A model generated the notes under the pieces. The model was given only the letters and a program-made list of their open reading frames with translations. It was not told the DNA's origin and made no database searches. From Naegleria gruberi (Eukaryota), in assembly GCA_000004985.1 (NCBI GenBank), contig GG738847.1: a DNA stretch of 64,000 nucleotides. One strand, given 5' to 3'. Positions within the stretch are counted from its first letter, which is position 1, and each line of letters begins with the position of its first letter. Positions 6,022 to 39,789 of this stretch are shown in pieces. The position numbers and the translations under genes are program-made.

Positions 6022-8015
6022 CTATATTTCTCCAAAAATATTTCCATCATCTGTGTCGGTTACTGGAGTTCTGTATTTTTCTTTTTGCTTGAAAAACTCA
6101 ACTGATGTTCTACACTCGATTGGGTACAAACTCTTTACAAATGTAATGCATTCCTCTACTGTCCATCTTTCAACATTGTTTTTTTTTGTCATGTTCAATA
6201 TTAATTCTTTCATAAACATATTGAACTGCTTTCTATGGGTTTCTTCCATATCGTTTTTAATATCTGTTCTTAAAGACTCATTGATTATTTCACTAATAGA
6301 ACGACCTAATGAAAACAAATCACTTTTAGGAGAAACACTGCCATGTTTTCTCTTTTCTGGTGAATCATAAGAAGGAGATCCAGAAGTTGAAGTGATTACA
6401 TTCTGGTCAAAATCCTTACAGACATCTCCATCACAGCTAGCATATTCAATTGACAAGCCATAATCAATTATAAAATAATGGTTGTCATACTTTACAATAT
6501 TTTGTGGTTTTAAATCGTTGTGAATTATTCGACTATTTTTGAGAAAATACAGTTGCACCAATAAGTCTATAGTCAAACTAATAATCTCTTCCGGATCTGA
6601 TATAGTCTCAACCTTTTCACCCTCCAACAAGATAATTTCTCCTGAACTTGCACGAGTGATGAACAATGTTAGGAACTTAAGATTACCTATTAATGAATCA
6701 CTACTATTCGGCTCAACTTGTTTACAAAAAGCCTTCCAACTGTTATTAGATTTTGGATTAATGATATCACATTTCCACAAAGATTTTGTTGTTTGGCAAA
6801 GTTTCTCTGGTGCTTTTTCACGTAATTTGATAATCAGTCCTCCAACAACTAAGGATGTTTGAGGCTTCTTCTTTTCTGTTTGGGGCTCTTTTATGGAAGG
6901 TTTTGAGTGCTTTAAATACGTTTCTACTATATCTGAGTCAGGAATAGAAAAGGAGTTCAAAATTATATGTATCAATTGTGCACGTTCTTTTACCTCAGTA
7001 TGTTGGAAATTTCCAAGTGTATACATTTTGTAAGATATAGATAGATCATCCTTAATATTTGCATGCATACAATACAAATTTGTTTGTATGTTGTCAGTAG
7101 TCATGCCAAGAATAAATAATTTGTCGTGTATGTTTGATTCCAGATCCTTTTTAACAAGATGTCTAATGTTCTTTGAAAGTGCCAATCTCATCACAAATAC
7201 CACTCTTAAAAAATCTGGATGATTAAAATGGCTAAACGAATGCTCATGTTTGTCTTCTCTAATAATTTTGGTAATGTACCTATCATTGTACTTTTGGGCC
7301 AAAATGGCATCAACTTGAAGTTCTTTCATTGAATCCTTAATTTTTTGTGACAACATTTTCTTATTTAACATGTTTGGTATCTGTTTGTTGCTATTGACAA
7401 ATATCTTGTTTTTGGAAAGGAGAGCCAATTCAAACAGTGAACTGAAGTGTGTTGTGGTGAGCTGCAATTCTGTAGCACAACCTAAAATGTTCAACTTTGG
7501 TGGAATAAGAGATCTAAGGATTGAAGAATAGCAATCATCACGGAGATTATAATGTTCGATAACAGCTTGAAGATTTTGAATTGAAGGATCTTGAGCATAT
7601 TTCATCAAACAACTTGTATCATCCTTGCAATTAAAAATAGGGCAAGTTTCTTTCGAATATTCAATACTCAAAGTCAACAATAACCTTCTCAAGGAAGTCA
7701 TATCAGTGCACCCTTCGATATCTGGTATTGCCACCAATTGTTCTTTCAACTTTTCATCTATTTCGTCGTTGGTTGTGACAAATGGTAATTCTTTCTTTAA
7801 ATATTGCTCTATTTGTTCCAAAAATTCAAAGCCTTGATTGATGGTATCTTGAAGCTTCTTTTTCTTGGCCTTTGGTTGTTGTTTAGATGGTGATGTTCGA
7901 CTTCTTGTTTTGCTTCTTGCAGCTTTGGAGTAAGGAACAGACAATCCAACATCATCGCCCTCTTCACATTCTTCTCCCGAAGAAGAAGAGGCTTCTTGTG
8001 TAAAATAACCAGCCT
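6022..8015 (-). CDS. Divergent protein kinase with a long N-terminal region. A possible 7-nt start exon (8056..8050, ATGGAAG) may be joined by a 34-nt intron. The ORF caller's M at 7944 is a TTG.
   Basis: Catalytic loop IIHNDLKPQNIV (non-RD), DYG in place of DFG, and a C-lobe. The open frame extends upstream to 8015 with no ATG. The ATGGAAG|GTATGT...AACAAG|AG model gives a total length divisible by 3, but the intron is unusually short. Confidence 0.6.
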
Positions 8016-17890: not shown

Positions 17891-20185
17891 TTATTTCCAA
17901 TTAGAGAGTGAAGAAGGGAAAATATTCATATCATTGTTATCAGTCATGGATGAGAGAACTCCCAACTCATCAAACGGTGTAGAAAATTTGAGTAATTGTC
18001 TTCCATGATAGGATTCCTTAATTCTTGATCGGTAGGATTTCATCACTGTAAAGAGAGCATTTCTCTGATTAGTATCACTTTGTTTTACCAATTCCATCAG
18101 AACAGAGGTTCCCTGCTCACTATTGATCAACATGAAAAAGTTATTGCTATTAAATTCTTTTGGACTATCTTCTGTTTCTAAGAATCTTCTCATCATTGGC
18201 ATTCTGGTTTCTGGAGTACGAACGAGGAATTGAATGATAAAGCATCCATGTTTATCCAATGCTAATTGCATGGCCTGTTGCCAAATGTCTTTCATTAAAC
18301 TGATTTTAGTTTCTTTGGAAACTAGATTGCAAGTGGATGCTGCAAAGGCAATATTTAAAACTTGTTGAATACAGAAAGCTCCATACTTGTCCTTAGATAA
18401 TTGAACTGTATGCTTGCTGAATTCATTCAATAATTCATCGAGGGAGAATGGTAAAGCAACTCCCTTTTTAGAATAGTGAACAATCATATTCAACACATAC
18501 TCAATTACCTTGGATGAATATCTTTGATAGGAGAGTAAAACTAGAGAGCCTCTCAATTCTTGAACTACTAAATCCAAATACTTGACATTATAGGTAGAGC
18601 AAAGGATTTGCTTCATGAAGAAAGTAGCATATCTATCTTGTGACATGGCCAAAAAGTGACCTTTACATTCAACAAGGAACGAATCAATTTCCTCTGGTTT
18701 GGCAGCAATGAATAATTGATTTACAACATGTGAAGCAGATGGTCCCAGCGATGAAATTAACAAATGTCCCTTGAAGGCATCAATAATCAACCTCTTTTGA
18801 GAGGATGATGCATACTTGAGAGTTTGAGTAATAAAGCAAGCTCCATGAGTGTCCTTACTTAAATTGACATAGTCGATTTTTGATAGTTTCCCAAGTAGTA
18901 TTGTTCTAGTTTCAGAAAATTTAACAAATTTTTCTAAAACTCTACATGGTTGATTCAATGCTAATAGCTCTTGAATGGAGTCTGTTTCAATAAGCTCATT
19001 CAACAATTGCTTTCTATGTTCCATATTACTTCCCCTAGCAATGGCATCAATAATGTACTGAGCGAATGCATCTCGAATGCACTTTGATAATGAACCCTTA
19101 AGTTCAGAAAGGATCATATCAGCTCTAGGATCATTCTCATTTGTAAATAATTCATAAATTCTCTCGCAAATCATGGAACCACCAGCAGTAAATACTAGGT
19201 CCTTAATACTACCCTTCAAAGATTTATCGAAAATTATTTTCGATTGTTTTGGTGAGCAGACCATCAAAAGGTGATATACTATAAATTTTCCGTAAACGTG
19301 TGAATTTAACTCTTCCAAGTGAGGTAAAACCTCCTCAAAAACCATATCTACATCCTCAGTAGTGTGTCCAATCACATGTTTTTTCAAAACTGATGCCACT
19401 TCCTGTGAAGCAGGAGTTCCAGTTAAGGCATATTCATGTTCAACAAACCACAACCCATTCTCTGATTGTTCCAACTTGCTGGAAGAGCTTGGATCTTTTT
19501 TCGTAATTTCCCTAGCTTTATCAGATCCTTTTGCAATCCAAACTTTTCTTCGTTGTAAACTATTTGAAATAAAAGCAGAACCAAACTTGTCCATTGCAAA
19601 AGCATAAATATGTCCTTTCAGTTCCGAAAGTGTGAGCATTGAACGTGCATGTTTGTCCATACCCAAATAGAAATCCTTTAGTTTTGAATCCTGAATATTG
19701 TTGGCGTGAGCAATGAGTCCCTGTTTTTGATAGAGACTATTCTCATGATCTTCAATACTATCTTCTGATGAAAGTAATTGTTTCTTTTCCAAGGCAAGTG
19801 CTTTTGAGAAACCTGGTTTTTTCTGTTTTTGTTTTATATGTTGTTGCTGCTGTTGTTGAGTATCACGATGATATTCAACATGATCGGAATCAACTTTAAC
19901 CATCAAATTACCTTCACCATCTCTTTTAAAATTAGGTGGTAAACTCGACAGTAAGTGTTCATCAAAGAATTCATCTTCATTTGGGAAGAATGCATCATAT
20001 TCAGTTGTGAATGGAAGATGACTTGTATCATCGTTGTGTGGTGTGAGTAGTGTCGAATTCACTCTGGAAAGATGTCTCTTCCCTCCGAATGAAGAACAAT
20101 TCGATGTTCCGAATATTGTGATGAAGGCTTGTTTTTTGCAAGTGGATAAACAACTAGACAATGATAATTTCCTCAAACCAATCAT
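17891..20185 (-). CDS. Pumilio-family (PUF) RNA-binding protein.
   Basis: 764 aa, ATG start. Repeated Puf-like units (GHIYAFAMDKFGSAFISNSLQ, DKYGAFCIQQVL, DKHGCFIIQFLV). N-terminal poly-Q region. Confidence 0.75.
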   Translation of the reverse strand: MIGLRKLSLSSCLSTCKKQAFITIFGTSNCSSFGGKRHLSRVNSTLLTPHNDDTSHLPFTTEYDAFFPNEDEFFDEHLLSSLPPNFKRDGEGNLMVKVDSDHVEYHRDTQQQQQQHIKQKQKKPGFSKALALEKKQLLSSEDSIEDHENSLYQKQGLIAHANNIQDSKLKDFYLGMDKHARSMLTLSELKGHIYAFAMDKFGSAFISNSLQRRKVWIAKGSDKAREITKKDPSSSSKLEQSENGLWFVEHEYALTGTPASQEVASVLKKHVIGHTTEDVDMVFEEVLPHLEELNSHVYGKFIVYHLLMVCSPKQSKIIFDKSLKGSIKDLVFTAGGSMICERIYELFTNENDPRADMILSELKGSLSKCIRDAFAQYIIDAIARGSNMEHRKQLLNELIETDSIQELLALNQPCRVLEKFVKFSETRTILLGKLSKIDYVNLSKDTHGACFITQTLKYASSSQKRLIIDAFKGHLLISSLGPSASHVVNQLFIAAKPEEIDSFLVECKGHFLAMSQDRYATFFMKQILCSTYNVKYLDLVVQELRGSLVLLSYQRYSSKVIEYVLNMIVHYSKKGVALPFSLDELLNEFSKHTVQLSKDKYGAFCIQQVLNIAFAASTCNLVSKETKISLMKDIWQQAMQLALDKHGCFIIQFLVRTPETRMPMMRRFLETEDSPKEFNSNNFFMLINSEQGTSVLMELVKQSDTNQRNALFTVMKSYRSRIKESYHGRQLLKFSTPFDELGVLSSMTDNNDMNIFPSSLSNWK

Positions 20186-22727: not shown

Positions 22728-24947
22728 ATGTCCATATTACCATTAGGAAAGTCAAAGAGTCTGTTTGTTGGTTCGTTGTGGTTGACCTGCTTGACCTGCA
22801 TCTTCATTCTTCTAGTTTCGTCCACGCATGTGTTTGCGAAAGTTCATCAACAATTCATGCTTCAAGCAGATAACAACACGACAACCACCTCCCAAAACAC
22901 CAATAATCAAACTATCCTCCAATTAATTCCTCCTCCTGATGTTTCCCTCACAGATTACAACGTTACAGAATTTATTATTCTACTTTCTAATGTGACCAAT
23001 AATCTAACATTGGCTCAAAACAAAATTGTTCTTACCAATTACACCAAAATCCATCCTTCAATCATTGTAACTTTGAGAAGCTTATTTATTCTTTTTAATA
23101 TTTGGCTTTTAGTTTCGGCAGTCATGTTCAGAAATTATGAACCTGTCAAATCAAAGTTTTTCTTTGTAATTGTATTAATTAGTGTCAATATTATTGCTCA
23201 TAGTCAGGGAGTTATTGAAAATCTTCCGATTATGAGGTTGTATTTTGAAAGTTATTGGAATAAGTTTATAAACGAAAGGAGACTAAACTCTATTGATGCT
23301 CAAACTTTTTACATGAATAATTTGGATTCGAAAGGATTTCCAACATGGATGAGAGGATATGCCTCTTTTGAAAACGGCTATTGTTTCTTCAATAGTTACG
23401 TTCTGGCCCCTTTGGTAGTTATGGGATTGGCATTATATTCGATTCAGATTCTTAAACTAATGTTACTACTCTTTCTGAAGGATAAAATTGAATCGGTCGA
23501 AAGATATTGGCAAGATTTCAAACAGAAACAATTAGAGAAACTCAAAAATATGAAAAAACAAGAAACGAATCAAACTGATCTGAAAACTCCAAAATCTATT
23601 GCAGATCAAGATCCAACAAATTCCACAAGTCAATCATCACTTAGACCTTCAATAACTACAAGTAATGAAATATCAATTACAGACGATACTCTCTCATCAA
23701 TTGATGTGGATGGTTCAGATGATGAAGTTATTTCACTAGATGTATTATCTGAAAGAGGACGATTCCTAAACCTTTTAAAGATTATTATCAGATATAAGGT
23801 TATTGAAATATCATACATTATCTTTTGGGGAATTGTAACTTATATTGCATTGAGTGCGAGAATATTTCTCTCCCCTGCAGATACACTCATTGAACCAATT
23901 TTTAATTCTTCATGGAAATCATTAGAAACTTATTGCAATTATACGGCTAGAGTTGATAATAATTTATATACCTTGATAATTTCTGCTATATTATTCTTAA
24001 TAGTTCCAATATTTCTCACAGTTGACTGTTTCGTTTCCCTTATAAAATATTTCAGACTAAGAAGGGAAAATAAGGAAAAGGGAATCAAGACTGAGAATTT
24101 CCTTGTGTATCACTTTTATGAAACAGATCCATTTGTATACAGATCAGAATCTTTACTTCGTTTCATATTTGACGTTATTGCTTTAATTATTTACTTGGTT
24201 CTTAGCTCAACGATCAATACTGATGGTACAGTGGGAGGAACAATTTCATCACTTGTAATTACAATTTTACTTCACTTTTTTGGAGGAACTTTCAGTAATC
24301 CTGGTGTGACCATTTACAAAACCTATCACAATTTCATTCGCATGAAGAAGAAGAGTAAGAATGCACTCATGCCCTCTCAACAAATTCAAAATCTTCAAGA
24401 GTTAATGTCCTCTCCAGTGAGTTCCTTCTCAATTGATTATGTCATTTCACGAAGAGTGGAAAGAGAATTTTTCCATGAATTTCTTAAAAAGGAATTCTCA
24501 GTGGAAAATTTACTTTTCGCTGAAGATTTACAAAAATTGAGAAATATTAATGAAAGACATGCAAGATCCAAAGTTTCCAAAGTCAAGGAAATGGTCAAAC
24601 TATACCTTTCAGATAATAGTTCAGTTTTTGAAGTGAATATTCCATCAAAAATCATTCATGCAGAATTGAAAGATTTTAGAGAGCTCACTCAATTAATGAA
24701 TCAACATGGAATTCAATTAAACAGCATTCCAAAAAGTATCAAGGAAAAGAGCTCAACAAGATATTTTCCTCAAATAGATTCCACCATTGAAGATCAAGTT
24801 CGAAAGCTCATTGAAAATTTGTCAAAATCTGACGTTTTCTCAACACTCAACATTGAAATTTACAAAAATTTGATGGATTCTTTCTATAGATTTAAACATT
24901 CTAGAAAGTGGATTGAATTTGTCAAGACAAATAAGGTTCAAATTTAA
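22728..24947 (+). CDS. Seven-transmembrane receptor fused to a C-terminal RGS domain (7TM-RGS, architecture as in plant AtRGS1).
   Basis: First ATG in frame at 22728 (the ORF caller started at an upstream TTG). Signal-peptide-like N-terminus MSILPLGKSKSLFVGSLWLTCLTCIFILLVSSTHVFA. Seven hydrophobic helices. Then FFHEFLKKEFSVENLLFAEDLQKLRNI, which matches the RGS consensus. Confidence 0.7.
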   Translation: MSILPLGKSKSLFVGSLWLTCLTCIFILLVSSTHVFAKVHQQFMLQADNNTTTTSQNTNNQTILQLIPPPDVSLTDYNVTEFIILLSNVTNNLTLAQNKIVLTNYTKIHPSIIVTLRSLFILFNIWLLVSAVMFRNYEPVKSKFFFVIVLISVNIIAHSQGVIENLPIMRLYFESYWNKFINERRLNSIDAQTFYMNNLDSKGFPTWMRGYASFENGYCFFNSYVLAPLVVMGLALYSIQILKLMLLLFLKDKIESVERYWQDFKQKQLEKLKNMKKQETNQTDLKTPKSIADQDPTNSTSQSSLRPSITTSNEISITDDTLSSIDVDGSDDEVISLDVLSERGRFLNLLKIIIRYKVIEISYIIFWGIVTYIALSARIFLSPADTLIEPIFNSSWKSLETYCNYTARVDNNLYTLIISAILFLIVPIFLTVDCFVSLIKYFRLRRENKEKGIKTENFLVYHFYETDPFVYRSESLLRFIFDVIALIIYLVLSSTINTDGTVGGTISSLVITILLHFFGGTFSNPGVTIYKTYHNFIRMKKKSKNALMPSQQIQNLQELMSSPVSSFSIDYVISRRVEREFFHEFLKKEFSVENLLFAEDLQKLRNINERHARSKVSKVKEMVKLYLSDNSSVFEVNIPSKIIHAELKDFRELTQLMNQHGIQLNSIPKSIKEKSSTRYFPQIDSTIEDQVRKLIENLSKSDVFSTLNIEIYKNLMDSFYRFKHSRKWIEFVKTNKVQI

Positions 24948-25271
24948 TTGTGTTGGATTTTCCATGTTGTGTTGTAGGAAGTGTTGGAAAAAGAAATTGG
25001 ATTTACAGAATTGTGTGCACAATAGAGTGCAAGAAAATTCATTTGTTATGAACTGTTGGCAGATGATATTTGAAATAAATTATTTGACTTTTGACTTGTA
25101 AATTGGCTAAAAGATTTTTATGAACCATGTCAACAGAAAAGTCATTCAAGTTGTCCACAAAAGCAACATCATTTCTGATAGTTGACTTTTCTTGATAAAT
25201 CGTTCAAACATTTGACATGAAAAAGATTTCTAGACAATTTAAGATACACAAGAAAAAAACAAATTCAAAAC

Positions 25272-26810
25272 ATGAGTGATTTTCATGCAAGAAACTATCA
25301 GATAGTATTTGAAGAGGCAATAAAATGTGCCCAGTTTCGAATAGTTTTTCAAAGCTTTTTAGAAAGACATCATAATCAAGAATCTATTCTATTTATTAAC
25401 AAGGTGATTGAATATACTGAAGAATATAAGAAAGTTGTTGGTCTTCCTTTCGAATACGAAACATTCTCGTTAATGTTGAGAGGAAACAATCATCAAGCTG
25501 ACATTCGTATTTCTTCAGCATCATCAAATAGACGAAATACATTAAAACTTTCTAGAAGAAGCTTGCAGAATTTACACGACAAGATGAATTCTATTGTCGA
25601 AACCTTTCTTAGAAATGATGGAGAAAGTGAACTAAACATTGGTCCACTTCAAAAGTCATCTATAGAACTCTGGCAACAAACAAGTCAAAAATTAAGTAGG
25701 GAAGAACAAGATGATGCATGTAGTGAAGGTTCGTCAGGCTCTAGCTCTTCAAATTCTTCATCACTCAGCTATTCGAAACCAAGTTTAGAAAGTCTAATTG
25801 AGGAATTTCATCCTGGGTATTTATTAGGATCTATTTCATTGTTAATTTTGGTAGATTTGAGTTTGGGACACTTTATCAAGTTTTCCCGATCGGAAGAATT
25901 ATTGCACTTCCTTAACAAGATGGGAATGAGCTATACGAGAAAGATTGGAATTGACATTTCGAAAGGATACAAGGTAGATTTGAGATTTAAACCCAATGAT
26001 TTAAAGACACCTGTTATAACGGATGAGCATATTTATTTTGGATTGACATTAGCTCAGGATACACCCGACTGGAAGATTGTTCATGAGAAGAAGAATTTGA
26101 CCGTTAGTACTTCTAGAACATCGTACGTGTTTAATTCCAAGCAAATGAAAGGATTTAAACTTTGTAAATTATCAATTGATCTGCCGTATAGTTTGGAAGA
26201 TGTTTGGGGAATGTGGACCCATCAGAAGAATCATCTCTATTTCGAACCAATGTTTTGTAATAATTTGAATTATCTGAATTATATTGAACCGAATGAGAGC
26301 TTTCATGGAACAACTTGTCCCTATGCTGTAAAGATTATGACCACGGCTTTTGATACCAAGATTCCACTCCTAAAGAAGAGATATGTGGAGACAGTTACAA
26401 CATGTGTAAAAGATAGTGCAATCGATCTTTACATGTTTGTTTTACATACAGCTGATCTTCCTAGTGGAGTTGCAACAATGCCGTCCAATTCTTTAGCAAT
26501 TGAAGGATTGTGTTATTATATAATGATGAGAGTGAATGAGAAGACGACGAGATTTTTGAATATAATGTACTCTGATTTTCAATTACCTTTGCAAAATATG
26601 ACCATTGGGCAAGTATTTAAACAGAGAGGTAAAACCATGTTGAATGGATTGAATTCAATATTACACAAATTGACTGATGGAAGGAAGAATCCTGTTGATA
26701 CCTTAGAAAATGAAGATACAGCTGAAGCTCAACGTTGTGTTGATGATAACATGAAATCTTTCCCAGATAGATCTTGGTATATGGAATGGAAGGGGTTGCA
26801 AAAGAAATAA
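25272..26810 (+). CDS. RGS-like N-terminal domain protein. The C-terminal domain is unassigned and could be a START/Bet v1-like fold.
   Basis: AIKCAQFRIVFQSFLERHHNQESILFINKVIEYTEEY fits the RGS helix pattern F..FL...E.L.F...V.Y. 512 aa, ATG start. Confidence 0.45.
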   Translation: MSDFHARNYQIVFEEAIKCAQFRIVFQSFLERHHNQESILFINKVIEYTEEYKKVVGLPFEYETFSLMLRGNNHQADIRISSASSNRRNTLKLSRRSLQNLHDKMNSIVETFLRNDGESELNIGPLQKSSIELWQQTSQKLSREEQDDACSEGSSGSSSSNSSSLSYSKPSLESLIEEFHPGYLLGSISLLILVDLSLGHFIKFSRSEELLHFLNKMGMSYTRKIGIDISKGYKVDLRFKPNDLKTPVITDEHIYFGLTLAQDTPDWKIVHEKKNLTVSTSRTSYVFNSKQMKGFKLCKLSIDLPYSLEDVWGMWTHQKNHLYFEPMFCNNLNYLNYIEPNESFHGTTCPYAVKIMTTAFDTKIPLLKKRYVETVTTCVKDSAIDLYMFVLHTADLPSGVATMPSNSLAIEGLCYYIMMRVNEKTTRFLNIMYSDFQLPLQNMTIGQVFKQRGKTMLNGLNSILHKLTDGRKNPVDTLENEDTAEAQRCVDDNMKSFPDRSWYMEWKGLQKK

Positions 26811-37652: not shown

Positions 37653-39470
37653 CTATTTATTGGAAGAGTTTACTAAGGCTCTCCTTGAGAAGCTTGTTAG
37701 TTTTCTCCACTTTTTATCATAGCCACCACATACGACCATCAAGTGCTCGCTCCAACTTCCAAATTCGTACACACTTTCTTCATCAGTGGATGGTAGGCAA
37801 CTTCTTGGATATTGAACTACATCCATGCATAGAATTCTATCTCCCACAGAGGATTGAGAAATTGGTTTGAAAGATATTGGATCCCAAAATCTAACAACTC
37901 CATCAAAACCACTGGAAATTATTGATCTACCGCATGATGGCTCATACATGATAGTATTCATCAGTTTACCACTTGCTGGTATAGAGTAAACTGGATCTTG
38001 TTTAAATTGTTCAGGATTGGAATCTGTTTGTTTGGCAGCAATGGTTTGACTAATATTTCTTAAATCCCAAACGTTAATCAAACCATCCACACCACCAGTA
38101 ACCAAATTAATACCATTGTATGGATTGAATGAGCAATTGAGTACCTCCTTGACATGGTGAACAAGGTTGGCCACCAACAAGCCAGTTCTTAAATCCCATA
38201 ATTTGACAATACCATTCATATCAGTTGTACACAATAATCCTCCATCAGGATGATGGTCTACACCATAAACTGGAGAATAGTGACCTTCCTGTGAATAGAG
38301 TAATTCGTTTCTCGATAAATCCCACATACACCAAGTTTGGTCAGAACTTGTACTGATGAATTGTTGGCCACTTGGATGAATGGACAATCTATTGATTACT
38401 GATGTATGTGCATTTCCAGCAGTGACAATTTCTCTCGAATTGATATCCTCATTGTTTTCTGATGTTCCATTAAATATTTGTACAGGTTTGTCAGTATCCT
38501 CAGCTTCCAAATTCCAAAGCTTAATAGTTCTGTCAGCAGAAGAACTCAACACATACTCATTTCTCACTTGTAGACATGTAATTCTCTCGTCATGAGCATT
38601 TGAGAAACTTCTCAATTGAGTACAGGAGAAGGATTCGTCTTCATTCATAACTTCTGGTTTTGTTGATACTTCCTCACTCTCGTCAATCATATTGTCTTCT
38701 TCCTTGAAACATGGATTGGCAACCTGCCAAACTTTCATGTCACCTGACCATCCTGATGAAATACATTTTCCAAAATCGTGTCCCAGAAATTTGATTTGTG
38801 AAATCGGCCTAGAATCACCAGTAATCGAAGAAACCAGTGATAAATTTTGTTGTAAATTCTTTACAAATCTATTCTTTCTCTCCACTAAATGTGCTGCAAG
38901 ACCTTGTTTAATAGTTGGTTCTCCCAATTTATCCTTCTTTACAATTTCTACATATTCTCTAATGCTCTCCAATCTTTGATGTGATGATTGCAGAGAGTGC
39001 ATTGCAATTTGTTCACGAACCTCTGCCAAATGTGGATTTGTACTTTGGAAAGTAAAATATTGTTTTGATAAATCCTCTTCTTCTTCTTCTTCCTCTACTG
39101 TTGCTTCCTCTTCATCATCTTGCATTTGCTCCACTAAATCTTGTCTTCCACTTTGTATTAATTCCTTCCTAAAATCAGCCATAATAACTGATTGTTCCGA
39201 GACTGATCTCGTCGATGCTGATGATGCTGATGATGGTTGTTCTACATCTTCCGATTCTCTAAGCTTTTGAATGGCTATCATTCTCTTCAGACGTTCTCTT
39301 CTCTCGGACGAACCTTCTCCAAACAAGGTCATTGGCTCTCCCATCTCTCTCAACTTTAACCTCACATCTAAATCGATGGTGGGTATTTTGAATTGTGTAT
39401 TAAAATTTGGTGAGAGGAGGATGAGTTGAATTTTTTGTTCATCTGGAAGGTGAGAAGCGTCAGACAACAT
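37653..39470 (-). CDS. PRPF4: U4/U6 snRNP protein Prp4 (PRPF4 homologue) with 7 WD40 repeats.
   Basis: Prp4-specific motif [27 protein letters not shown] blades are collinear with human PRPF4 ([14 protein letters not shown]..., [17 protein letters not shown]..., [17 protein letters not shown]...). ATG at 39470. Acidic, Glu-rich insertion. Confidence 0.85.
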
Positions 39471-39789
39471 TTTTTTTCTTTTAATTTTTCTAATATTTAT
39501 TTCCTCATTGAACCAGTTGACATTATTATTTGTGAATCTTGTTGTGTAAGATGGTTGCAAAGTACAATTATTTTAGAGATTTCCATTGCTATATTTTCAG
39601 ATTTACATTTACTTCTCTTTTCAAAGTGTTGCTTGTTATTTCATTCGATCATCGTAATAATAGTCTTCAATGTAGGAAAAGACCTATTTGCACTTTCCAT
39701 CCTTTAATTGATTGAGAAATCCAACTAATTTCAGATATAGCTCTAGAGAAACTCTTCCAATTCTTTTTAAGGCATTATTTGATCTCCTA

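What the first reader, a model, noticed from the sequence alone, without database searches (positions are those of the whole stretch)
22728..26810. 7TM-RGS fusion receptor next to a second RGS-like gene
The 22728..24947 protein has a signal peptide and seven hydrophobic helices followed by a clear RGS domain (FFHEFLKKEFSVENLLFAEDLQKL). This is the architecture of the self-contained G-protein regulator AtRGS1 of plants and some protists.

The next gene on the same strand, 324 bp downstream (25272..26810), opens with an RGS-like helix pattern (FRIVFQSFLERHHNQESILFINKVIEY). Its C-terminal domain of about 250 aa is unassigned and may be a lipid/ligand-binding START-like fold. Two adjacent RGS-type genes suggest local duplication or a small G-protein signalling cluster.
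Basis: partly seen in the sequence, partly recalled or inferred. Interest (0 to 1): 0.6.

Follow-up and report, generated by a model that had tools for sequence, protein, structure and literature searches.

The report
Naegleria 7TM-RGS receptor beside RGS-START gene
Two neighbouring Naegleria gruberi genes encode a GPCR-shaped membrane protein with a cytosolic RGS tail and a soluble RGS protein with a hidden START lipid-binding domain; both are real, but they are ordinary members of this amoeba's very large RGS repertoire and not a duplicated pair or a signalling cluster.

Summary
The window is Naegleria gruberi.

**Gene 1 (22728..24947, +, 739 aa)**
- It has a signal-peptide-like N-terminus, a sequon-rich ectodomain, seven hydrophobic helices and a C-terminal RGS domain (Pfam 29.4 bits, cut-off 23.9).
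- All RGS4-type Gα-contact residues checked are invariant in its family.
- The reference model (XP_002682312.1, 465 aa) is N-terminally truncated and lacks TM1-3.
- The 7TM part has sequence relatives only in Naegleria, Willaertia and one unnamed ENA contig. That is 5 hits among 1.84 billion representatives, so homology to the AtRGS1 7TM is not shown.

**Gene 2 (25272..26810, +, 512 aa, XP_002682313.1)**

**The pair**
- The two RGS domains are barely alignable.
- Each gene's nearest paralogues lie on other scaffolds.
- The N. lovaniensis homologue examined has no RGS-START neighbour.
- N. gruberi has 229 RGS proteins, so a few adjacent pairs are expected by chance.

Verdict: new members of known kinds, low to moderate interest.

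The parts
22728..24947 (+). Gene 1: complete CDS of a 739-aa 7TM-RGS protein. The reference model XP_002682312.1 / NAEGRDRAFT_62406 covers only residues 275-739.
   Evidence: Uninterrupted ORF from the first ATG. It is 100% identical to P0001 over 465 aa. Residues upstream of the annotated start are conserved in paralogues and orthologues.
22728..22838 (+). Signal-peptide-like N-terminus (residues 1-37; K-containing n-region, h-region LFVGSLWLTCLTCIFILLV, VFA|K site). It could instead be an uncleaved TM0.
   Evidence: Hydropathy peak 2.49. An analogous segment occurs in the longer ENA version of paralogue P0002 (P0015). AF2 confidence is low here. No SignalP run.
22839..23051 (+). Predicted extracellular N-terminal domain (residues 38-108) with 6 N-x-S/T sequons
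   Evidence: Sequon positions 49, 60, 78, 88, 92 and 104. Few flanking K/R.
23052..24308 (+). 7TM core (residues 109-527). TM1 109-133, TM2 143-164, helical ECL1 165-218, TM3 219-244, TM4 357-381, TM5 409-434, TM6 473-496, TM7 503-527. Invariant C219 and C403, ETDPFVYR in ICL3, P525-G526 in TM7.
23460..23795 (+). Long cytosolic loop between TM3 and TM4 (residues 245-356): K-rich helical extension of TM3, then a Ser/Thr/Asp-rich disordered stretch
   Evidence: AF2 pLDDT below 50 for 281-343. Variable length in the family. Charge counts.
24393..24929 (+). RGS domain of gene 1 (residues 556-734), with an insert of about 40 residues between the EVNIP loop and the C-terminal helices
24948..25271 (.). 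324-bp intergenic spacer; the two genes are separate
   Evidence: Seven in-frame stop codons. Paralogues of gene 1 end at, and a paralogue of gene 2 starts at, the same positions.
25272..26810 (+). Gene 2: 512-aa soluble RGS-START protein, identical to XP_002682313.1 / NAEGRDRAFT_45771
   Evidence: Exact sequence found in the collection. No transmembrane-type topology; the single hydrophobic stretch lies inside an RGS helix.
25296..25946 (+). Split, divergent RGS domain of gene 2 (residues about 9-225), with two low-complexity inserts (about 58-92 and 150-169)
25947..26807 (+). START-fold domain (residues about 226-470) plus a conserved helical C-terminal extension (about 471-512, RSWY-EW motif)

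Best explanation
These are two independent, unrelated members of the expanded RGS repertoire of Naegleria gruberi that happen to be neighbours.

Gene 1 encodes a plasma-membrane receptor-GAP. A cleaved signal peptide directs a glycosylated N-terminal domain and a helical first extracellular loop to the outside. A GPCR-fold seven-helix bundle spans the membrane. A canonical R4-like RGS domain on the cytosolic tail accelerates GTP hydrolysis on one or more of the many Naegleria Gα subunits. An extracellular cue sensed by the bundle probably changes how well the tethered RGS reaches Gα, through conformation, phosphorylation of the long Ser/Thr-rich TM3-TM4 loop, or internalisation. This would work like AtRGS1.

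Gene 2 encodes a soluble protein in which a divergent RGS domain is joined to a START lipid-binding domain. It probably couples binding of a hydrophobic ligand, or recruitment to a membrane, to Gα binding.

Shown here (by prediction): domain content, predicted topology, predicted folds, residue conservation, phyletic restriction and lack of linkage. Inferred: GAP activity, ligand regulation, lipid binding and cellular location.
For: Organism and gene identity.

Gene 1:
- RGS above the Pfam threshold and PDB RGS hits.
- Positions matching RGS4 E83, S85, E87, N88, E126, N128, D163, S164 and R167 are identical and invariant in all 7 family members (alignments).
- SP-like segment plus seven hydrophobic helices.
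- K+R in membrane-flanking segments: 24 on the predicted cytosolic side against 8 outside. Six sequons in the N-terminal domain and two in ECL2.
- Cys at the top of TM3 and in ECL2 invariant.
- AF2 TM region pLDDT about 70-90.

Gene 2:
- RGS fold and START fold.

Independence of the two genes:
- (RGS domains barely alignable).
- (paralogues on contigs of different sizes).
- (no RGS-START next to the N. lovaniensis homologue).
- PMC3971589 (229 RGS proteins in N. gruberi).

The AtRGS1 mechanism used as the analogy: PMC3386157.
Against: - No biochemical or expression data exist for either gene.
- Topology was not checked with a dedicated predictor. The N-terminal segment may be an uncleaved eighth helix, although the RGS would still be cytosolic.
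- The AF2 models rest on shallow alignments (7 and 6 sequences). Mean pLDDT is 67 and 70, and pTM for gene 1 is 0.48, so the relative placement of the bundle and the RGS is unreliable.
- Whether Naegleria Gα proteins self-activate, which is the context in which a GAP-receptor is the controlling element, was not established here.
- Gene 2 itself has lost several Gα-contact residues (N88->S, D163->G, S164->H, R167->K), so it may not be a GAP at all.
Confidence: 0.6

Rival explanations
1. Gene 1 is a true G-protein-activating GPCR (a GEF) that carries its own RGS. The bundle activates Gα on ligand binding and the tethered RGS shuts it off quickly. This would sharpen signals in time and space, for example during chemotaxis, instead of the protein acting as a GAP-only receptor.
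For: The bundle is structurally closest to bona fide G-protein-coupled class C, D and A receptors. It keeps a TM3-ECL2 Cys pair and a conserved TM7 Pro. N. gruberi also has canonical GPCRs and lineage-specific Gα expansions, and GAP and GEF receptors coexist in several lineages (PMC3971589).
Against: No motif that would argue for G-protein activation was examined here; only a TM7 Pro-Gly is conserved. The only characterised 7TM-RGS protein, AtRGS1, works as a GAP on a self-activating Gα (PMC3386157). Fold similarity alone cannot show GEF activity.
Confidence: 0.25
2. The two genes are a functional unit or a recent tandem duplication, forming a small G-protein signalling cluster in which the soluble RGS-START protein works with the neighbouring receptor.
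For: Same strand, 324 bp apart, both with RGS domains.
Against: The RGS domains show no significant pairwise similarity. The closest paralogues of each gene are on other scaffolds. The N. lovaniensis homologue is flanked by Rpb1, a PUB-domain protein and an acetyl-CoA hydrolase. The flanking genes here are an OTU protease and a kinesin. With 229 RGS proteins among about 15,700 genes (gene number from memory of the genome paper), about 3 adjacent pairs are expected by chance.
Confidence: 0.05
3. One or both RGS domains are non-catalytic scaffolds, as in GRKs, axin or the SNX13/14/25 RGS domains, and do not regulate Gα GTPase activity.
Against: For gene 1, all nine contact positions checked are canonical and invariant across 7 sequences that are only 24-46% identical to gene 1 overall. 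That pattern indicates selection on the Gα-binding face. Gene 2 still keeps the equivalents of E87 and N128.
Confidence: 0.1

Closest known systems
AtRGS1-type 7TM-RGS proteins of plants and various protists
   Same: The domain order is the same: an N-terminal seven-helix membrane domain, then a cytosolic RGS box with canonical Gα-contact residues. The expected logic is also the same: a membrane receptor that promotes GTP hydrolysis (PMC3386157; PMC3971589).
   Different: - No sequence relationship of the 7TM part was detected. A 7TM-only profile hit just 5 of 1.84 billion representatives: four from Naegleria or Willaertia and one unnamed ENA contig.
- Gene 1 also has a signal peptide, a glycosylated ectodomain of about 70 residues, a helical ECL1 of about 55 residues and a TM3-TM4 loop of about 110 residues. 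As far as I recall, AtRGS1 has none of these.
- N. gruberi has at least 4 copies, whereas plants have one (PMC3971589).
Class C GPCR transmembrane domains (TAS1R, GABA-B, mGlu, GPRC5D, GPR156/158)
R4-type RGS domains (RGS4, RGS3, RGS10, RGS17)
   Same: Gene 1 shares the fold and all Gα-contact residues checked.
   Different: There is an insert of about 40 residues before the last helices, so Pfam aligns only profile positions 2-74 of 117.
RGS proteins joined to lipid-handling domains: RGS-START architectures noted in surveys, and SNX13/14/25 (PXA-RGS-PX)
   Same: Gene 2 pairs an RGS domain with a lipid-binding fold. START is listed among the domains that combine with RGS in divergent taxa (PMC3971589). 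The SNX13 RGS domain is the best structural RGS match.
   Different: The START domain here is invisible to Pfam in all 6 family members, so Pfam-based surveys would have scored this family as RGS only. There are no PX or PXA domains and no TM anchor. The family was found only in Naegleria.
Mammalian START proteins (STARD5, STARD4, STARD3/MLN64, StAR, STARD10, CERT)
   Different: Identity is 8-15%. The ligand is unknown. There is an extra conserved helical tail of about 40 residues.

Membership tests
RGS domain (PF00615), gene 1 | Profile match above the curated threshold | tested here: met
   29.4 bits against 23.9. 7/7 family members hit, best E 2.3e-8.
RGS domain (PF00615), gene 1 | All-helical RGS fold | tested here: met
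RGS domain (PF00615), gene 1 | Gα-contact residues of GAP-active RGS proteins (RGS4 E83, S85, E87, N88, N128, D163, S164, R167) | tested here: met
   All are identical and invariant in 7 sequences.
RGS domain (PF00615), gene 1 | GTPase-accelerating activity on a Gα | not testable with these tools
   Needs a biochemical assay.
RGS domain (PF00615), gene 2 | Profile match above the curated threshold | tested here: inconclusive
   The protein itself scores 15.5 bits, below 23.9. All 6 family members match at E <= 10, best E 1.6e-6. A family profile gives 16 PDB matches at E <= 1, all RGS chains, best E 0.0038.
RGS domain (PF00615), gene 2 | All-helical RGS fold | tested here: met
RGS domain (PF00615), gene 2 | Gα-contact residues of GAP-active RGS proteins | tested here: not met
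   Only the equivalents of E87, E126 and N128 are kept. E83->H, S85->N, N88->S, D163->G, S164->H, R167->K. Paralogues keep D163 and R167.
7TM-RGS receptor-GAP (AtRGS1 type) | Seven TM helices N-terminal to the RGS, with the RGS on the cytosolic side | tested here: met
   Hydropathy, positive-inside count 24 against 8 and sequon distribution, AF2 helices. This is prediction only; no dedicated topology predictor was run.
7TM-RGS receptor-GAP (AtRGS1 type) | 7TM domain homologous to that of AtRGS1 | tested here: not met
   The 7TM-only profile against 1.84 billion representatives gave 5 hits: four from Naegleria or Willaertia and one unnamed ENA contig. No Pfam 7TM family was hit at E <= 10. Structural comparison with an AtRGS1 model was impossible because afdb50 was unavailable.
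7TM-RGS receptor-GAP (AtRGS1 type) | Partner Gα that self-activates; regulation by ligand-induced phosphorylation or endocytosis | not testable with these tools
   Needs biochemistry and cell biology.
GPCR fold | Seven-helix bundle superposable on solved GPCRs | tested here: met
GPCR fold | Conserved Cys pair linking the top of TM3 to ECL2 | tested here: met
   C219 and C403 are invariant in 7 sequences. The disulfide itself is inferred.
GPCR fold | Coupling to and activation of heterotrimeric G proteins | not testable with these tools
   Needs experiment.
START domain (PF01852 / Bet v1-like superfamily), gene 2 | Sequence-profile match | tested here: not met
   No START-family hit at E <= 10 in any of the 6 family members. 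The family profile finds no START chain in PDB by sequence.
START domain (PF01852 / Bet v1-like superfamily), gene 2 | Helix-grip fold: antiparallel sheet wrapped around a long C-terminal helix | tested here: met
START domain (PF01852 / Bet v1-like superfamily), gene 2 | Hydrophobic ligand cavity and lipid binding | not testable with these tools

The most novel reading that the evidence does not exclude
The heterolobosean 7TM-RGS family arose by an independent fusion of a lineage-specific GPCR-fold receptor, with a signal peptide, an ectodomain and a giant TM3-TM4 loop, to a canonical RGS domain. On this reading, receptor-GAPs evolved convergently in plants and in Naegleria and were not inherited from a common 7TM-RGS ancestor. 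Naegleria would then run GEF-type GPCRs and several GAP-type receptors side by side on its expanded Gα set.
Probability: 0.4. Interest if true: 0.4.

Novelty: new member of a known kind. Interest (0 to 1): 0.25.

Why it matters
The practical gains are modest.
1. The reference gene model NAEGRDRAFT_62406 is corrected. The full model has the three N-terminal helices and the signal peptide, which turns a 4-TM RGS 'predicted protein' into a 7TM-RGS receptor.
2. A small 7TM-RGS family is defined. Its named members are all from Naegleria or Willaertia, with at least 4 copies in N. gruberi. Its membrane domain has a GPCR fold but no detectable sequence tie to AtRGS1. This bears on whether receptor-GAPs are ancestral or convergent.
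3. A START domain hidden from Pfam is recognised in a Naegleria RGS family. This hints at a link between lipid sensing and G-protein regulation.

None of this changes current views. Large, architecturally diverse RGS repertoires, and 7TM-RGS proteins in many non-animal lineages, are already documented (PMC3971589).

Tried and rejected
- **Tandem duplication:** rejected.
- **One spliced gene spanning both ORFs:** both ORFs are in the same frame, but this was rejected. There are seven in-frame stops, and the paralogues' termini coincide with the ORF ends.
- **Signalling cluster:** rejected after Pfam scans of 25 large ORFs and RGS family HMM searches of 331 six-frame ORFs, and after inspecting the N. 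lovaniensis locus.
- **Pfam 7TM families for gene 1 and Pfam START for gene 2:** no hits even at E <= 10.
- **Third word-indexed homology search with the 7TM-only alignment:** returned only the three N. gruberi proteins already known and added nothing.
- **afdb50 fold library:** not installed, so no comparison with AlphaFold models of AtRGS1 or other 7TM-RGS proteins was possible.
- **Bradford 2013 and Anantharaman 2011:** these are the papers most likely to list Naegleria 7TM-RGS proteins, but they are not held. The de Mendoza supplements are not held either.
- **Locus look-up of paralogue P0002:** failed.
- **Literature search for RGS + START:** found nothing relevant.
- **Correction of an early impression:** I first thought gene 2 was missing from the NCBI annotation. 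It is present as XP_002682313.1.
Full report
**Source and coordinates**

The window is Naegleria gruberi. The C-terminal 465 residues of the first ORF are 100% identical to XP_002682312.1 (NAEGRDRAFT_62406). The second ORF is identical over its whole length to XP_002682313.1 (NAEGRDRAFT_45771). Both lie on the same 941,567-bp scaffold. The window is 31-37% G+C and has long intron-free ORFs.

Gene 1 runs from its first ATG at 22728 to the stop at 24947 (739 aa). Gene 2 is 25272..26810 (512 aa), on the same strand and 324 bp downstream. The two are in the same reading frame, but seven stop codons lie between them. Paralogues of gene 1 end, and a paralogue of gene 2 begins, at the corresponding positions. 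They are therefore separate genes.

**Gene 1: the RGS domain**

- Pfam PF00615 matches residues 569-644 at 29.4 bits, above the curated 23.9.
- phmmer against PDB sequences returns RGS17, RGS10, RGS9, RGS14, RGS12, RGS7 and others.
- Pfam aligns only the first two thirds of the profile. An insert of about 40 residues precedes the last helices, but the C-terminal 'DSFYRF' helix aligns with 'DSFPRF' of RGS17.
- In an alignment of seven family members that are only 24-46% identical to gene 1, the positions equivalent to RGS4 E83, S85, E87, N88, E126, N128, D163, S164 and R167 are identical to RGS4 and invariant.

This is a canonical, probably GAP-competent RGS domain.

**Gene 1: the membrane domain**

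Hydropathy shows an N-terminal hydrophobic stretch (residues 10-37) preceded by lysines and followed by VFA|K. It then shows seven further segments, at about 110-134, 141-164, 218-251, 357-382, 409-442, 473-498 and 500-524.

Topology indicators:
- Six N-x-S/T sequons cluster in residues 49-104 and two more lie in the TM4-TM5 loop.
- Lys+Arg in the membrane-flanking segments number 24 on the side that includes the C-tail and 8 on the other side.
- These point to N-terminus out and RGS in.

Conserved features in all seven sequences:
- A Cys at the top of TM3 (C219) and one in the TM4-TM5 loop (C403). This is the position of the disulfide found in most GPCR classes; the bond itself is inferred.
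- The motif ETDPFVYR in the TM5-TM6 loop.
- Pro-Gly in TM7.

No dedicated topology or signal-peptide predictor was available. If the N-terminal segment is not cleaved there would be eight helices, and the RGS would still be cytosolic. A longer ENA version of paralogue P0002 (P0015, 834 aa) restores an equivalent N-terminal hydrophobic segment, which suggests that the signal sequence is a family feature.

**Gene 1: gene model**

The reference protein starts at residue 275 (MKKQETNQ...), downstream of TM3. The upstream 200 residues, including TM1-TM3 and the YFESYWNQF loop, are well conserved in paralogues and in the N. lovaniensis, Willaertia magna and ENA homologues. The long ORF is therefore coding and the reference model is truncated. 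The exact 739-aa sequence is absent from the 15-billion-protein collection.

**Gene 1: family and relation to AtRGS1**

A profile of the 7TM part alone (RGS excluded) was scored by HMMER against 1.84 billion representative proteins. It found only five proteins: gene 1 itself, a second N. gruberi protein (XP_002678090.1), N. lovaniensis XP_044555687.1, Willaertia magna KAL9652243.1 and one unnamed ENA contig protein. All carry the RGS tail.

With P0002 and P0003, N. gruberi has at least four paralogues. They lie on contigs of four different lengths, so they are not tandemly arrayed. No Pfam 7TM family is hit by any member at E <= 10.

The protein therefore has the architecture of AtRGS1, but descent from a shared 7TM-RGS ancestor is not shown. 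A structural comparison with AtRGS1 models could not be made because afdb50 was unavailable.

**Gene 2**

Taken alone, the protein scores below the Pfam threshold for RGS (15.5 bits, E 0.023). Other evidence supports an RGS domain:
- All six family members hit PF00615 (best E 1.6e-6).
- A family profile gives 16 PDB matches at E <= 1, all RGS chains. Where alignments were printed, the matches are colinear pieces separated by low-complexity inserts; the RGS7 alignment shows three: the 'FxxFL...EE..LF' helix pair, the 'ELNLG' loop and the 'DQFPRFVRS' helix.

Unlike gene 1, the Gα-contact positions are poorly kept. Only the equivalents of E87, E126 and N128 remain. D163 and R167, which the paralogues keep, are G and K here.

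The C-terminal half is a START fold:
- Foldseek against PDB gives STARD5, STARD10, STARD6, ACOT11-START and CERT-START at E 3e-8 to 1e-7, with target TM-scores of 0.63-0.75.
- Pfam does not detect START in any of the six members.

Homologues were found only in N. gruberi, N. fowleri, N. lovaniensis and one ENA contig.

**Are the two genes linked?**

- BLASTP between the two RGS regions finds a 16-residue match at E 0.46.
- HMMs built from each family's RGS region find only their own gene among 331 six-frame ORFs of the window, even at E <= 10.
- hhalign of the two family alignments gives E 0.017 with probability 2.7%.
- Each gene's nearest paralogues lie on other scaffolds.
- The N. lovaniensis homologue of gene 1 is flanked by Rpb1, a PUB-domain protein and an acetyl-CoA hydrolase, not by an RGS-START gene. 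Its orthology to gene 1, as opposed to another paralogue, was not established.
- Around the pair in this window lie an OTU protease and a C-terminal-motor kinesin. None of the 25 large ORFs scanned with Pfam is a Gα, Gβ or further RGS.
- De Mendoza et al. counted 229 RGS proteins in N. gruberi (PMC3971589). With about 15,700 genes (from memory of the genome paper), about 3 adjacent RGS pairs are expected by chance.

The duplication and cluster readings are therefore rejected.

**Mechanism**

The best-supported reading is that gene 1 is a receptor-GAP. An extracellular signal is read by the ectodomain, loops and bundle. The tethered canonical RGS accelerates GTP hydrolysis on Naegleria Gα proteins. 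Its access to Gα is modulated by conformation, by phosphorylation of the long Ser/Thr/Asp-rich TM3-TM4 loop, or by internalisation. This is by analogy with AtRGS1, which constitutively promotes GTP hydrolysis on a self-activating Gα (PMC3386157).

Architecture, topology, folds and residue conservation are shown by prediction. Activity and regulation are inferred.

The main rival is that the bundle is also a GEF and the RGS provides fast shut-off. This cannot be excluded, since GAP- and GEF-type receptors coexist in several lineages (PMC3971589).

Gene 2 is most simply a soluble Gα-binding protein whose location or activity depends on a lipid bound by its START domain. Its degenerate contact residues make GAP activity doubtful.

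**Novelty**

7TM-RGS proteins in 'many bikonts', TM-anchored RGS proteins in most lineages, the very large Naegleria RGS repertoire, and START among the domains that combine with RGS are all documented (PMC3971589). What is added here:
- a corrected gene model;
- a small 7TM-RGS family whose named members are all from Naegleria or Willaertia, with a GPCR fold and no sequence link to AtRGS1;
- a START domain hidden from Pfam in a Naegleria RGS family.

These are new members of known kinds. Interest is low to moderate.

Noticed in passing
window:39790-41298 (-): A 502-aa ORF matches Pfam T2SSF (type II secretion system protein F, E 2.2e-12). This is very likely the GspF homologue of the mitochondrial T2SS-derived system already described in Naegleria gruberi (PMC8134430, PMC10128026).
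   Followed up: partly
window:26833-28893 (-): A 686-aa kinesin with a C-terminal motor domain and an N-terminal coiled coil (Pfam Kinesin E 7e-111). It converges on gene 2, and the two stop codons are only 22 bp apart, so the 3' UTRs must be very short or overlap.
   Followed up: no
window:21475-22323 (+): An OTU-family cysteine protease (Pfam OTU E 3.8e-13) lies about 400 bp upstream of gene 1. It has a His/Asn-rich low-complexity N-terminus.
   Followed up: no
paralogues outside the window (P0002, P0003, P0007, P0013): Several other reference N. gruberi models in these two families also look wrong. XP_002674497.1 lacks 45 N-terminal residues, including an SP-like segment that is present in ENA protein P0015. 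XP_002676711.1 starts inside TM2, and XP_002678090.1 has low-complexity sequence where TM1-2 should be. XP_002669643.1 lacks part of an RGS helix.
   Followed up: partly
window:42616-46776 (+), 37653-39560 (-), 17891-20185 (-), 6022-7944 (-): Ordinary housekeeping neighbours unrelated to G-protein signalling: a condensin Cnd1 subunit, a PRP4-type WD40 splicing factor, a Pumilio-repeat protein and a protein kinase.
   Followed up: no
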